From: a virus
Taxonomy: Duplodnaviria > Caudoviricetes
Strand: one strand, 5' to 3'
Virus record (IMG/VR): IMGVR_UViG_3300018475_000011
Location: 1 to 64,000 of that record
Length of the DNA stretch: 64,000 nucleotides
The notes under the pieces were generated by a model. That model had not been told where the DNA came from and searched no databases. It saw only the letters and a program-made list of their open reading frames with translations. The translations under genes were made by a program, and so were the position numbers. Below are positions 56,577 through 60,226 of the stretch, piece by piece (position 1 is the first letter of the stretch; each line of letters opens with the position of its first letter).

Positions 56577-57311
56577 ATGAAAAAACAACACACACCAAAT
56601 AAAACCAACTTGGAAGGCGTAAAAGAGATTGCAAAATTATTGTATATGGCTGTGGAAATTAAGCCAAACGAAATTGTACCCTTTATTGTAAACCACCCTT
56701 TCATCGAAAGTACCCATGTTCAAATAGAAGGCAAGGGATTTGACCTTTTAGATATTACAAAGGAAGAAAATGCAAAAATGGCACAAGAGATGTGGTTTCG
56801 TCGATTTGACGAAGCAACGTCCATACACGACATAACTTGTCATGTGTCAAAGCCATATAGATTGACTTTTTTGAAGTATGCAAAAGAGTATTTATCATTG
56901 GCTGACTTTTCATCATATCTTGCAGAATCTTGGGTTACAAGCGAAAACGGAAACAACGATGTTAATTGTTCGTTAAAAGAGATTGTGTCATGGTTTAGAA
57001 AGGCTGATAAAAAAGCTCTTATGGGCGAAGAAGATTACGAAATATATAATAATTTCCCCGAAACATTTACCGTATATCGTGGCGTGGCTGTGGGGCGTGT
57101 AAAAAACGGGTTGTCATGGACTAGAAATCTCAAAACAGCTCAATGGTTTGCAAATCGTTGGGGAAAGAAAGGATATATTCAAAAAGCAGAAATATCCAAA
57201 GAAAATGCTCTTGCGTACTTAAATAGTCGTGGGGAAGATGAAGTCGTAGTGGACGTATTTGCGATTAAAAATAATATAGTTCGCATGGAAGCGGAAGGAG
57301 ATGCAGAATAA
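56577..57311 (+). CDS. Putative ADP-ribosyltransferase (R-S-E clade)
   Basis: TVYRG, GLSWT, RGEDEVVV in the canonical order. Confidence 0.6.
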   Translation: MKKQHTPNKTNLEGVKEIAKLLYMAVEIKPNEIVPFIVNHPFIESTHVQIEGKGFDLLDITKEENAKMAQEMWFRRFDEATSIHDITCHVSKPYRLTFLKYAKEYLSLADFSSYLAESWVTSENGNNDVNCSLKEIVSWFRKADKKALMGEEDYEIYNNFPETFTVYRGVAVGRVKNGLSWTRNLKTAQWFANRWGKKGYIQKAEISKENALAYLNSRGEDEVVVDVFAIKNNIVRMEAEGDAE

Positions 57312-57577
57312 TGGCTGATATGGAGAAAATGAACAAATATGTGAAGATTGCCGAAAGAGCTGAAAAGTCGGGAATGTATGTAATGGATAGGTTGAGCGTC
57401 CTTATGGATATAGAGAGTGCGGATTTGCGTTTCAATATCCGTCTTGATGATTGGCTCAATGCCGATGATGAAAATTTCTTCCATGATTTTACGGGCATTG
57501 TCACGAACATCGAAAGAACAAAATTTCCCGCAACGGAATTTAATCTGTTCGTGCCAAGATTTGCGGGAGAAGAATAA
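57311..57577 (+). CDS. DUF6874-like small protein
   Basis: MDIE...LDDWLNADDENFFHDFTGI...FVPRF. Confidence 0.55.
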   Translation: MADMEKMNKYVKIAERAEKSGMYVMDRLSVLMDIESADLRFNIRLDDWLNADDENFFHDFTGIVTNIERTKFPATEFNLFVPRFAGEE

Positions 57578-58059
57578 TGAAACGTATTGAAACAATGATA
57601 ATTGAGAAGGTTCTTTTGGCATCGTGCTTTGGCTCAAACCCCAAACTCGCAAAAGAATACGGAACGACGGAAGTTACTATTGATTTTCAAAGAAACGGTA
57701 ACGGAAAAGAGATTGTTGACTTTATGAGCTATAATCCCAAAGATGATATTGTAAAATGTTATGAAATCAAAGTGACAATGCAAGATTTTAATAGCAATGC
57801 AAAAAAATCATGGTACGGCAACTATAATTATTTGGTGTTGTCTGCGGAATTATATAATGAGCAATCGCTTGAATTTTGGAAAGAAAAAACTCCCGTTACC
57901 GTAGGAATTATTGTGATAAATACGGAAACAACAGTAAAAATGTGCGTGAAACGTGCAAAATTTATTTGTTGCTCCATGGATAAAAGTGCGTTGAAAGATA
58001 GCCTTATCCGAACATTATTTTATCAAAATCAAAAAGACGATTGGTATTTAAGAAAATAG
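57577..58059 (+). CDS. PD-(D/E)XK nuclease-fold protein (MmcB-like)
   Basis: TEV...VDFM...CYEIKVTMQDF...GNYNYLV. Confidence 0.7.
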   Translation: MKRIETMIIEKVLLASCFGSNPKLAKEYGTTEVTIDFQRNGNGKEIVDFMSYNPKDDIVKCYEIKVTMQDFNSNAKKSWYGNYNYLVLSAELYNEQSLEFWKEKTPVTVGIIVINTETTVKMCVKRAKFICCSMDKSALKDSLIRTLFYQNQKDDWYLRK

Positions 58060-58109: not shown

Positions 58110-58155
58110 TGCAATAATGTGTTGACATTATCGTTACGCTATGCTATAATATATT
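58110..58155 (+). promoter_or_regulatory. Class-I repeated promoter/operator, copy F
   Basis: TTGACA 58122, CGTTAC 58132, TATAAT 58145. Confidence 0.85.
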
Positions 58156-58178: not shown

Positions 58179-58448
58179 ATGGCTATGACAGAAAAGCAGA
58201 TAAAAAGACGCATGGACGAAGCATGGGAAAGTCACTATATACAGTACGATATGGAAGCCGAATGGTACGCAACAGATGATTTTCACGAATGGATATGCGA
58301 TATCCCGTCGAAGCAGATAACCGTCAAAATGGTACTGATTGAAGATGCGAAGAGAGTTACCATTTACGAAGCTCCATTGGAGAAACAAAGACGATATGAT
58401 TATGTAAGAGAAACCGAATGGAAAGTACGGGGACATTATAGTTGGTAA
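58179..58448 (+). CDS. Hypothetical protein
   Basis: GAAAGGGG RBS. Confidence 0.7.
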   Translation: MAMTEKQIKRRMDEAWESHYIQYDMEAEWYATDDFHEWICDIPSKQITVKMVLIEDAKRVTIYEAPLEKQRRYDYVRETEWKVRGHYSW

Positions 58449-58469: not shown

Positions 58470-58793
58470 ATGTTGTATGAAATTAGAAAGGCTGATGTGC
58501 AGAATTTCAAAGAGATTACTATATGGAAGCACGCCAACGAAGATATATGGGAAGTACGCCCTAATGATTGGCACATTGGTTCGGATATTCTTATCCTTGT
58601 TGATGAAGAAAGGGTAATGGAGTTCGATTATGAAGGACAGCATTTTTCGATTCTATTGAAGAAGGGATATCCCGAATACTTTACCAAAGAAGAACCATTT
58701 AAGGATATGGGGATTCGCAAGGTGGTGTATTTGCGATTTACAGACGATGATTTTGTAAGCAAACAAATACCTACGTTAATAAGAAAGGGGTAA
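58470..58793 (+). CDS. Hypothetical protein
   Basis: AAGGGGG RBS. Confidence 0.7.
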   Translation: MLYEIRKADVQNFKEITIWKHANEDIWEVRPNDWHIGSDILILVDEERVMEFDYEGQHFSILLKKGYPEYFTKEEPFKDMGIRKVVYLRFTDDDFVSKQIPTLIRKG

Positions 58794-58794
58794 C

Positions 58795-59022
58795 ATGAAA
58801 ACATTAAGAGATTTAATGCCGTTCATATCTTATACGGCTGATTTACAGATTATGGAAACAGAAAGGGATTTCAAGAAATACGATTATGTCTTTCCCAAAT
58901 GTGACATTATCAAAAGGAAAACCATTGAAGAACATTATCCCGAATTGCTCGATAGAGAGCTTTCCGACGGCATTCATGGAGAAGGAGTAAGGGACGGCGT
59001 ATATATTCACTTATATAAGTAA
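58795..59022 (+). CDS. Hypothetical protein
   Basis: GAAAGGGG RBS. Confidence 0.7.
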   Translation: MKTLRDLMPFISYTADLQIMETERDFKKYDYVFPKCDIIKRKTIEEHYPELLDRELSDGIHGEGVRDGVYIHLYK

Positions 59023-59033
59023 GGGGGACACAC

Positions 59034-60137
59034 ATGAGAAGAAATAGTAACTCAAACGATGTAGATTTAGCTTTGAAATGGGTAAAAGGATTGACCGAAG
59101 ATATGGGGGCATTGGAAAAGCTCGTTTCCGTTCCTAGTCCCGAAGATATAAGAAAGCTCTTTTTGATAGATGCTTCTACAACGCTTGAAGAATCAGCAGA
59201 GTTGATGAAGAAACATAAAGAGTTTTATAAATTAATGTGCCAAGCAAGAGAATTTGACAAGTCTGCATATACGGAAACCGTTAATGATTTGGACGCAATA
59301 AGTATGTTGCAAATATGGGCTAGAAATAAGCAGATATTTTCATTTGATGCGGATTTTCTTGCTGAATTGCTTAATACAGATACGCCAACATTTGAAAAGG
59401 ATAGTTGGGATTACCTACCCTACAATCCGTTTTACGTTGATTTATCTGATAGCGAAGAGTTAAGTCAAAAAATAGGCAAGGGATTCTTTTTGTATATAGA
59501 AAAAACGGGAAACGATACGTTTATGCCCGAAATGCAAAACAGTTATTACGTTCATTTGTGCCGTGTAACTGATGAAATGTACTTTTGCGATATGTTTTCA
59601 CGCAAGAATACAAGCGGTACGGTGGAAATTAATAAAGACGCAACCGTAGTCGTTCCCACTATGGCAATGGATAAAAAACACGGCGAAATGTTTTCGATAG
59701 AAGATATTAAAACGGGCGAAGCTACATTGAGTAGCGGTTTATATGATTTGTTGGTTATGCAAATTCTTACCTATTTATCAAGCCTTGAACCCGATATTAA
59801 GGAAAACAGTATTACAAAAAATACATACAGAAAGCCGAAAACAGATTCCAAGCCAAAGAATAAGTTTTCGGAAGTGCAAAAATGGAATGTCGGAGAATCG
59901 TTTGGCGTTTCTTATAGGAAATGGGAAAAGGAACGCTCTGCGTCCCATGGCGGTCATGGTGGCGGTAGTGGAGCAAGCGGAGTTAAGAAGCGTCCACATT
60001 CCCGTAAAGCCCATTGGTCGCATTATTGGTATGGAAGTGGCGACAACAAAGTGCGTCGCCCTAAGTGGATATCGGCAACCTTTGTTAATGCAAGTGATAC
60101 GGAAATGAAAGTAACAGTAAATACAGTTAGTAAATAA
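59034..60137 (+). CDS. AcrVA2/FinQ-like protein
   Basis: WARNKQIFSFDADFLAELLNT...LPYNPFYVD and C-terminal KRPHSRKAHWSHYWYG...KWISATFVN. Confidence 0.6.
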   Translation: MRRNSNSNDVDLALKWVKGLTEDMGALEKLVSVPSPEDIRKLFLIDASTTLEESAELMKKHKEFYKLMCQAREFDKSAYTETVNDLDAISMLQIWARNKQIFSFDADFLAELLNTDTPTFEKDSWDYLPYNPFYVDLSDSEELSQKIGKGFFLYIEKTGNDTFMPEMQNSYYVHLCRVTDEMYFCDMFSRKNTSGTVEINKDATVVVPTMAMDKKHGEMFSIEDIKTGEATLSSGLYDLLVMQILTYLSSLEPDIKENSITKNTYRKPKTDSKPKNKFSEVQKWNVGESFGVSYRKWEKERSASHGGHGGGSGASGVKKRPHSRKAHWSHYWYGSGDNKVRRPKWISATFVNASDTEMKVTVNTVSK

Positions 60138-60139
60138 GC

Positions 60140-60172
60140 AAAAGCTACCCTTTTTTTAGGGTGGCTTTTTTA
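60140..60172 (+). terminator. Intrinsic terminator
   Basis: AAAAGCTACCCT / AGGGTGGCTTTT. Confidence 0.8.
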
Positions 60173-60180
60173 TTTTAATA

Positions 60181-60226
60181 TGCAATTATGTGTTGACATT
60201 ATCGTTACGCTATGTTATAATATATT
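60181..60226 (+). promoter_or_regulatory. Class-I repeated promoter/operator, copy G
   Basis: TTGACA 60193, CGTTAC 60203, TATAAT 60216. Confidence 0.85.

What the first reader, a model, noticed from the sequence alone, without database searches (positions are those of the whole stretch)
59034..60137. AcrVA2/FinQ-like protein in a Firmicute plasmid
Seen: N-terminal W..Q.IF.FD..L..L.T...LP..FY and C-terminal RPHxRxAHWxxYWxG...KW motifs. As I recall the families, these match AcrVA2 (which suppresses Cas12a biogenesis) and its homologue FinQ (fertility inhibition); this needs verification. Lachnospiraceae are known Cas12a carriers. Inference: an anti-CRISPR, or a translation-coupled silencer of another defence or conjugation gene, expressed from promoter F.
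Basis: partly seen in the sequence, partly recalled or inferred. Interest (0 to 1): 0.72.

Follow-up and report, generated by a model that had tools for sequence, protein, structure and literature searches.

The report
AcrVA2/FinQ-family gene on Clostridial plasmid
The 367-residue protein is a real member of the already catalogued AcrVA2/FinQ family, whose one studied member shuts off a single target gene by destroying its mRNA during translation; here it sits on a conjugative plasmid of gut Clostridia and its target is unknown, so this is an ordinary new member of a known family.

Summary

Family membership holds by sequence and by fold:
- AcrVA2 (PDB 7CI1/7CI2) is hit at E=3.6e-7 with the single sequence and E=1.7e-14 with a 35-sequence profile.
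- AcrVA2 is the only structural match: Z 15 over 271 residues spanning the full length, next best Z 2.5.
- All five residues shown by mutagenesis to matter in AcrVA2 are kept: W79/D89/H286/R288/H291 correspond to W95/D105/H322/R324/H327.
- Close homologues carry the Pfam family PF26125, "AcrVA2-like".

The host element is an 88-kb circle with Rep3, a MobV-type relaxase, VirB4, a coupling protein, PrgI and TraX. It is a conjugative plasmid, although IMG/VR files it as a virus.

The gene is last in a four-gene cassette. A perfect sigma-A promoter drives the cassette and a terminator closes it. That promoter is one of eight copies of a promoter family.

A Cas12a target is not supported. No Cas12a was found in the element or in five genomes that carry relatives. 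The parts of the protein expected to recognise the target are hypervariable.

This scan has already reported this family in at least 64 other genomes.

Verdict: new member of a known kind, modest interest.

The parts
58122..58150 (+). Promoter F: TTGACA, 17-nt spacer containing CGTTAC, TG-extended TATAAT. It is one of eight copies of the same promoter family in the window.
   Evidence: 12/12 consensus match. The pattern occurs 8 times against 0.29 expected. The eight copies are aligned and the sequence is read.
58179..58448 (+). First gene of cassette F, 89 aa, no known family. It is preceded by an AAAGGGGTGG Shine-Dalgarno sequence.
   Evidence: no Pfam or PHROG hit.
58470..58793 (+). Second gene of cassette F, 107 aa, no known family.
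   Evidence: no Pfam or PHROG hit.
58795..59022 (+). Third gene of cassette F, 75 aa, no known family. It ends 11 nt before the AcrVA2-like start codon.
   Evidence: no PHROG hit. A 75-aa gene sits in the same position in the sister plasmid L020.
59034..60137 (+). AcrVA2/FinQ-family gene, 367 aa (P0001).
59034..59297 (+). Residues 1-88: helical N-terminal module, hypervariable among homologues (mean pairwise identity 21.5%).
59298..59483 (+). Residues 89-150: conserved core with W95, N98-K99-Q100, D105, L128-P129, Y134, D136 and G150. W95 and D105 correspond to AcrVA2 W79 and D89.
   Evidence: mutagenesis of W79/D89 is described.
59484..59738 (+). Residues 151-235: beta-rich middle module, hypervariable (mean pairwise identity 23.5%).
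59739..59927 (+). Residues 236-298: conserved module (Q243, L245, Y247-L248, S250, P253, E257 ... S279-E280, W284, G287, G291, R295). Mean pairwise identity 60.7%.
   Evidence: aligned to AcrVA2.
59928..59987 (+). Residues 299-318: variable Gly/Ser-rich linker of low predicted order.
59988..60089 (+). Residues 319-352: signature module R-P-H322-x-R324-x-A-H327-W ... W332 ... W345, corresponding to AcrVA2 H286/R288/H291. Mean pairwise identity 70.8%.
   Evidence: these residues are essential in AcrVA2.
60140..60169 (+). Intrinsic terminator (12-bp stem, T run) starting 3 nt after the stop codon. The next promoter of the family starts at 60193.

Best explanation
The gene encodes a full-length member of the AcrVA2/FinQ family (Pfam PF26125, PHROG 6160). 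It is carried by an 88-kb circular Rep3/MobV conjugative plasmid of gut Clostridia.

By analogy with AcrVA2, the only mechanistically studied member, it most likely recognises a short peptide of one particular target protein as that protein is being translated. It would then cause loss of that protein's mRNA through the conserved C-terminal H-x-R-x-x-H-W module. The hypervariable N-terminal and middle modules would set the choice of target.

It is transcribed as the last gene of a four-gene cassette from a strong consensus sigma-A promoter. That promoter shares an operator-like CGTTAC motif with seven other cassette promoters. This layout would give a burst of expression when the plasmid enters a repressor-free recipient.

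The target is unknown. My odds are:
- a host defence or other host protein that is not Cas12a: about 45%
- a protein of a rival mobile element (FinQ-like): about 20%
- Cas12a: about 10%
- something else: about 25%

Shown here: family membership, fold, conserved residues, cassette anatomy and plasmid context. Inferred: the silencing mechanism, the burst expression and the class of target.
For: Sequence:
- phmmer against PDB finds AcrVA2 7ci1 at E=3.6e-7.
- The 35-sequence profile finds it at E=1.7e-14.
- hhalign against the Moraxella phage Mcat24 orthologue gives probability 97.3%.
- PHROG 6160 is hit at E=3.9e-28.
- All 61 homologues, including a 98%-identical one, carry precomputed PF26125. 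One search names that family 'AcrVA2-like'.

Fold:
- The AF2 model has pLDDT 82 and pTM 0.81.
- Foldseek finds only AcrVA2: E=2.4e-7, probability 1.00.
- VIA-align gives Z 15.2, rmsd 4.7 A, 271 residues, model 7-352 against chain 0-316.
- In an exhaustive search of 48,161 chains AcrVA2 scores Z 14.8 and the next chain Z 2.5.

Residues:
- W95, D105, H322, R324 and H327 align with AcrVA2 W79, D89, H286, R288 and H291.
- Mutating those AcrVA2 residues weakens or abolishes Cas12a mRNA down-regulation.

Modularity:
- Mean pairwise identity is 21-24% in residues 1-88 and 151-235. It is 50-71% in residues 89-150, 236-298 and 319-352.
- The sister plasmid L020 carries two tandem paralogues that differ mainly in the variable modules.

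Context:
- The element encodes Rep3, topoisomerase, a Mob_Pre relaxase, a VirB4-like ATPase, a T4SS coupling protein, PrgI and TraX, and no phage structural family.
- Homologues sit in the same kind of Rep3/TraX/ERF/PIF1 plasmids.
- The promoter family, cassette and terminator are documented. The same promoter flanks the orthologous cassette in L020.
- Repeated strong repressor-controlled promoters drive 'establishment' (anti-defence) operons in pLS20-family plasmids (PMC8708921).
- The plasmid lacks GATC, GGCC, CCGG, GCGC, CGCG, CCWGG and GCNGC entirely. This shows strong selection by host restriction systems.
Against: - The mechanism is known from one family member that is only about 16% identical, and its mRNA-decay step is itself unexplained.
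- No target can be named.
- The three co-transcribed small genes and the neighbouring cassettes contain no recognised anti-defence gene.
- The gene lies 35-53 kb from the relaxase gene, so it cannot be placed in a leading region.
- No repressor for the promoter family was identified.
- No expression data could be obtained.
Confidence: 0.62

Rival explanations
1. It is a true anti-CRISPR against type V-A. Like AcrVA2, it binds the nascent N-terminus of the host's Cas12a and removes cas12a mRNA.
For: It belongs to the same family and fold and keeps all functionally tested residues. Cas12a does occur in Lachnospiraceae: 9 of 401 sampled genomes. AcrVA2 itself acts on LbCas12a from a Lachnospiraceae bacterium.
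Against: No Cas12a was found in the element or in 5 of 5 genomes that carry relatives. The 2 of 401 sampled Lachnospiraceae with a family member are not among the 9 with Cas12a. The published survey of about 1,800 orthologues finds them typically without Cas12a. The presumed recognition modules are hypervariable, at about 22% identity even among close plasmid relatives. The host of this plasmid is unknown.
Confidence: 0.1
2. It is a FinQ-like fertility inhibitor. It lowers transcripts of transfer genes of a competing conjugative element in the same cell.
For: FinQ is a family member found on conjugative plasmids, and it reduces F transfer-gene mRNA. This gene is on a conjugative plasmid, and its relatives all sit on similar plasmids.
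Against: FinQ itself was not retrieved or aligned here. No rival element or target is known. The gene sits among cassettes whose shared strong promoter looks like that of an entry-time regulon. That fits anti-defence better than a role in an established donor.
Confidence: 0.18
3. It is a family member with a role unrelated to targeted silencing, for example control of the plasmid's own genes or an undescribed nucleic-acid activity of the basic His/Arg/Trp module.
For: The biochemical activity of the family is unknown. The fold resembles no enzyme or RNA-binding protein: the next best structural match is Z 2.5. Many members occur with no identifiable target system.
Against: Conserved effector-like modules combined with hypervariable modules, and tandem paralogues that differ in the variable parts, are what a target-specific conflict protein would show. 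A housekeeping regulator would not be expected to look like this.
Confidence: 0.1

Closest known systems
AcrVA2 (Moraxella bovoculi prophage anti-CRISPR; PDB 7CI1, 7CI2; Pfam PF26125 AcrVA2-like; PHROG 6160)
   Same: Same three-domain fold over the full length (Z 15.2, 271 residues). Significant sequence match in the C-terminal third. W79/D89/H286/R288/H291 are all conserved. Both are carried by mobile elements.
   Different: Only about 16% identity overall. This protein is 44 residues longer, with a longer helical N-terminus and a Gly-rich linker. It is on a Gram-positive conjugative plasmid, not a Moraxella prophage. There is no adjacent acrVA1-like gene and no Cas12a in sight. The region equivalent to the Cas12a-contacting E98 is not conserved.
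FinQ (fertility inhibitor of IncI/F-like plasmids of E. coli)
   Same: Same family according to Marino et al.. Both are encoded by conjugative plasmids.
   Different: FinQ comes from Enterobacterial plasmids and acts on F transfer genes. Its sequence was not compared here. No fertility-inhibition phenotype is known for this gene.
Establishment (anti-defence) regulons of pLS20-family plasmids, repressor type (p576; PMC8708921)
   Same: Several clustered operons of small variable genes, each behind the same strong promoter with a shared operator-like element.
   Different: The regulatory sequences are unrelated. No repressor was identified here. No ardA/ardC-type gene was recognised in the cassettes.

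Membership tests
AcrVA2-like / FinQ family (PF26125) | Significant sequence or profile similarity to AcrVA2 | tested here: met
   phmmer E=3.6e-7; profile E=1.7e-14; hhalign probability 97.3% against a Moraxella phage orthologue; PHROG 6160 E=3.9e-28.
AcrVA2-like / FinQ family (PF26125) | Match to the Pfam model PF26125 itself | tested here: inconclusive
   The model is missing from the local Pfam copy. All 61 homologues, including the 98%-identical P0002 and the 78%-identical P0003, carry a precomputed PF26125 hit. One search names it 'AcrVA2-like'.
AcrVA2-like / FinQ family (PF26125) | AcrVA2 three-domain fold over the full length | tested here: met
   Foldseek E=2.4e-7, probability 1.00. 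VIA Z 15.2, rmsd 4.7 A, 271 aligned, model 7-352. It is the unique hit among 48,161 chains, with the next at Z 2.5.
AcrVA2-like / FinQ family (PF26125) | Conserved functional residues: W79, D89 and the H286-x-R288-x-x-H291 motif | tested here: met
   W95, D105, H322, R324 and H327 occupy these positions. They are invariant in 35 homologues. W, H, R and H are invariant across phyla.
AcrVA2-like / FinQ family (PF26125) | Translation-dependent down-regulation of a specific target mRNA | not testable with these tools
   Needs RNA-seq or qRT-PCR with wild-type and H322A/R324A/H327A protein.
Type V-A anti-CRISPR (functional class) | Co-occurrence with Cas12a in the host | tested here: inconclusive
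   No Cas12a was found in the element or in 5 genomes with relatives. There is no overlap in 401 Lachnospiraceae. The host of this plasmid is unknown.
Type V-A anti-CRISPR (functional class) | Inhibition of Cas12a interference | not testable with these tools
   Needs an interference assay.
FinQ-type fertility inhibition (functional class) | Reduces transfer of a co-resident conjugative element | not testable with these tools
   Needs mating assays. The FinQ sequence was not retrieved.
Repressor-controlled establishment regulon (p576 type) | The same strong promoter/operator upstream of several clustered operons | tested here: met
   Eight copies against 0.29 expected, 11-12/12 consensus. Seven copies occur in 16 kb of the sister plasmid.
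Repressor-controlled establishment regulon (p576 type) | A plasmid repressor that shuts these promoters after entry | not tested
   Several small HTH proteins exist, but none was linked to the CGTTAC element.

The most novel reading that the evidence does not exclude
The protein silences a Clostridial defence or host protein other than Cas12a by recognising its nascent chain. The sister-plasmid variants, including tandem paralogues, keep the C-terminal H-x-R-x-x-H-W module but swap the N-terminal and middle modules. If so, they form a natural set of re-targetable, polypeptide-specific gene silencers deployed from an entry-time regulon. Finding its target would extend the AcrVA2 mechanism beyond CRISPR and into Gram-positive bacteria.
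Probability: 0.45. Interest if true: 0.55.

Novelty: new member of a known kind. Interest (0 to 1): 0.3.

Why it matters
AcrVA2 is so far the only bacterial example of a protein that removes one specific mRNA after reading the nascent polypeptide. How it does this, and what the roughly 1,800 relatives without Cas12a act on, are open questions.

This plasmid gives a clean Gram-positive test case:
- a single-copy, full-length member with every key residue
- a defined promoter and terminator
- natural variants on sister plasmids that differ mainly in the presumed recognition modules

The gene is not a new kind of system. The family is in Pfam and in the literature, and this scan has already met it in many genomes.

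Tried and rejected
- Pfam-A (local copy), NCBIfam and PADLOC gave no usable hit for the protein. PF26125 is absent from the local Pfam library, and no paper mentions that accession.
- hhalign against a Moraxella orthologue aligned only the C-terminal 104 columns. The N-terminal correspondence rests on the fold match and on the multi-phylum alignment.
- Complex prediction of the protein with the first 120 residues of a Lachnospiraceae Cas12a returned 'no answer' (score 0.00). This is evidence neither for nor against binding.
- The FinQ sequence could not be retrieved. tblastn of plasmids returned only 'hypothetical protein' relatives in Providencia, Moellerella, Salmonella, Leptospira and others.
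- I considered a phage or phage-plasmid identity, because IMG/VR files the record as a virus. I rejected it: no structural, terminase or portal family was found among about 115 ORFs scanned, while a full conjugation set is present.
- I considered a leading-region location. It cannot be asserted because oriT and the transfer direction are unknown.
- The co-operonic small proteins have no Pfam or PHROG family. They are not conserved next to more distant homologues, so I rejected an obligatory partner.
- The relative in L008 contains an in-frame stop and was left out of the alignment.

Full report
**Observation.** The window holds an ATG-initiated ORF at 59034-60137 on the + strand encoding 367 residues. 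The C-terminal string R-P-H-x-R-x-A-H-W-x-x-Y-W-x-G ... K-W is present exactly at residues 320-345.

**Family membership by sequence.**
- The local Pfam-A, NCBIfam and PADLOC libraries gave nothing. PHROG 6160, of unknown function, matched residues 73-354 at E=3.9e-28.
- phmmer against all PDB chains found one significant hit, AcrVA2 (7CI1/7CI2), at E=3.6e-7. The alignment covers residues 242-354 and includes the His/Arg/Trp motif.
- A search of 5.8 billion proteins returned 61 homologues, all from metagenomes. All carry a precomputed hit to PF26125. That model is missing from the local Pfam copy, and a later tool output names it 'AcrVA2-like'.
- A profile of 35 homologues (alignment A1) raised the AcrVA2 match to E=1.7e-14.
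- hhalign against the AcrVA2 orthologue of Moraxella phage Mcat24 gave 97.3% probability.

**Family membership by structure.**
- The AlphaFold2 model built on A1 is confident: mean pLDDT 82, pTM 0.81.
- Foldseek against the PDB returned only AcrVA2 chains as significant (E=2.4e-7, probability 1.00).
- VIA-align gave Z 15.2, rmsd 4.7 A, over 271 residues spanning model residues 7-352 and chain residues 0-316. The match is full length, not only C-terminal.
- An exhaustive comparison with 48,161 representative chains again gave AcrVA2 alone (Z 14.8), with the next chain at Z 2.5.

**Functional residues.** Marino et al. (bioRxiv 10.1101/2022.11.29.518452) report the following.
- AcrVA2 lowers Cas12a mRNA in a translation-dependent way, after binding the N-terminal Cas12a polypeptide.
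- W79A and D89A weaken its activity. H286A, R288A and H291A abolish it while binding is retained.
- FinQ is a family member.
- About 1,800 orthologues occur on plasmids and phages, mostly without Cas12a.

In the present protein W95, D105, H322, R324 and H327 occupy those positions. I confirmed the numbering against the PDB alignment. These residues are invariant in the 35-sequence alignment. In an alignment that adds members from a Lactobacillus phage, plasmids of Leptospira, Providencia and Salmonella, and a Moraxella phage, W, P129, H, R, H and W345 remain invariant. I put family membership at about 97%.

**Modular conservation.** Mean pairwise identity differs sharply by region among the 35 homologues.

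| Residues | Region | Mean pairwise identity |
|---|---|---|
| 1-88 | helical N-terminus | 21.5% |
| 89-150 | W/D core | 49.9% |
| 151-235 | beta-rich middle | 23.5% |
| 236-298 | conserved module | 60.7% |
| 299-318 | Gly-rich linker | 18.6% |
| 319-352 | H-x-R-x-x-H-W module | 70.8% |

Two homologues (P0005, P0007) are 100% identical to the window protein in the last module but only 23-28% identical in the variable ones.

A sister plasmid (L020, orthologue 78% identical) carries two tandem family genes of 372 and 363 aa. They differ in the variable parts at both protein and DNA level.

This pattern is what a conserved effector module joined to fast-evolving recognition modules would produce. 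That reading is an inference.

**The element.**
- The window is the first 64 kb of an 87,999-bp record with a 35-bp terminal overlap, so it is a circle. IMG/VR lists it as a virus.
- Its genes say conjugative plasmid. They include a Rep3 initiator, a type IA topoisomerase, a Mob_Pre relaxase, a VirB4/HerA-like ATPase, a TraG/VirD4 coupling protein, PrgI, TraX, RecD- and PIF1-like helicases, ERF, two SNase genes and a resolvase.
- On the other arm it has RecJ-like, primase-like, PARP-WGR and NT5C genes.
- No phage structural family appeared.
- Homologues lie in the same kind of Rep3/TraX/ERF/PIF1 elements of 60-150 kb.
- Relatives in species-representative genomes are all Clostridia: Blautia, Parablautia, Hespellia, Anthropogastromicrobium, Oscillospiraceae and Faecalibacterium.
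- 'Firmicute plasmid' is therefore supported. The exact host is not known.

**Expression anatomy.**
- A perfect TTGACA-17-TATAAT promoter with an extended -10 lies at 58122-58150. A Shine-Dalgarno sequence and an ATG at 58179 follow it.
- Four genes follow with gaps of 1-21 nt: 89, 107, 75 and 367 aa.
- A 12-bp-stem terminator starts 3 nt after the stop codon (60140-60169). The next promoter starts at 60193.
- The promoter belongs to a family of eight in the window: 40158, 42472, 47603, 54483, 55716, 58122, 60193 and 62363. All have CGTTAC at the same spacer position, against 0.29 matches expected by chance.
- The sister plasmid has seven copies in 16 kb, including copies on both sides of its AcrVA2-like cassette.
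- In pLS20-family plasmids, repeated strong promoters held off by a plasmid repressor drive clustered, variable 'establishment' operons. These fire transiently in the recipient (PMC8708921).
- The resemblance suggests the same logic here. No repressor was identified, and no known anti-restriction gene was recognised in the cassettes.

**The Cas12a question.**
- Cas12a (TIGR04330) is absent from the element and from five genomes carrying relatives.
- As a positive control, the same search found Cas12a in 9 of 401 sampled Lachnospiraceae.
- The family profile hit 2 of the same 401 genomes, and neither has Cas12a.
- These numbers are too small for a statistical test, but they give no support for Cas12a as the target.
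- Combined with the published distribution and the hypervariable recognition modules, I put Cas12a at about 10%.
- A complex prediction with a Lachnospiraceae Cas12a N-terminus gave no verdict and counts neither way.

**Mechanism and odds.**
- Most likely (0.62): a target-specific, translation-coupled silencer in the AcrVA2 manner, produced at plasmid entry, with an unknown target.
- Rivals: Cas12a-specific anti-CRISPR (0.10); FinQ-like fertility inhibitor (0.18); a different, undescribed activity (0.10).
- The biochemical step that removes the mRNA is unknown even for AcrVA2.

**Novelty.**
- The family is catalogued (Pfam PF26125, PHROG 6160, PDB 7CI1/7CI2), and its wide spread on plasmids and phages is published.
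- The scan's own index lists 85 earlier notes on AcrVA2/FinQ-like genes in at least 64 other genomes, including tandem pairs in jumbo phages and plasmids.
- This is a new member of a known kind.
- Its useful features are the clean cassette, the complete set of key residues and the natural module-swapped paralogues on sister plasmids.

Noticed in passing
whole element (window 1-64000 plus L001, L002): The 88-kb element contains no copy at all of GATC (about 281 expected from base composition), GGCC, CCGG, GCGC or CGCG (about 84 expected each). It also has none of CAGG/CCTG (about 380), CCAG/CTGG (about 295), GCNGC or GGNCC, and only one CCTC/GAGG (about 193). This is an extreme purge of a whole panel of short restriction-type motifs.
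   Followed up: partly
window 40158, 42472, 47603, 54483, 55716, 58122, 60193, 62363; also L001:1725 and L002:3641 (-): A family of near-identical consensus sigma-A promoters has an invariant CGTTAC in the spacer and a conserved ATAATGTG upstream. Each heads a cassette of small genes and often sits right after a terminator. This looks like a single-operator regulon. The same family occurs in the sister plasmid L020.
   Followed up: partly
whole record (G000): IMG/VR lists the record as a virus with direct terminal repeats. Its gene content is that of a conjugative plasmid (Rep3, Mob_Pre relaxase, VirB4-like, T4CP, PrgI, TraX), and no phage structural gene was found.
   Followed up: partly
L001:14329-16020 (-), i.e. 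element 78326-80020: A 564-aa protein has an N-terminal WGR domain and a PARP catalytic domain (Pfam E=1.5e-24). This is a eukaryote-like PARP layout on a bacterial plasmid.
   Followed up: no
element 66080-84022, minus strand (L001): Most of the larger minus-strand proteins end in a Lys/Arg-rich tail that finishes with x-E-R or x-D-R (VER, WER, IDR, YER, GDR, KGR, IER-D, IER-G). Plus-strand cassette proteins do not. It may be a shared C-terminal signal. An earlier scan note on another genome also saw a shared C-terminal tag around an AcrVA2-like gene.
   Followed up: partly
L020:10001-12212: The sister plasmid carries two tandem AcrVA2-like genes (372 and 363 aa) where the window has one. The copies share the conserved modules but differ strongly in residues 1-88 and 151-235.
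   Followed up: yes
window 56577-58059: The neighbouring cassette E holds a 244-aa protein (PHROG 4776), a DUF6874 protein and a 160-aa protein (PHROG 2776, weak DNA-repair-like hit). The three recur together next to the AcrVA2-like cassette in L020.
   Followed up: no
L008:8001-8738: The family relative in a sheep-rectum Clostridia MAG contains an in-frame stop codon. It may be a pseudogene or a sequencing error.
   Followed up: no
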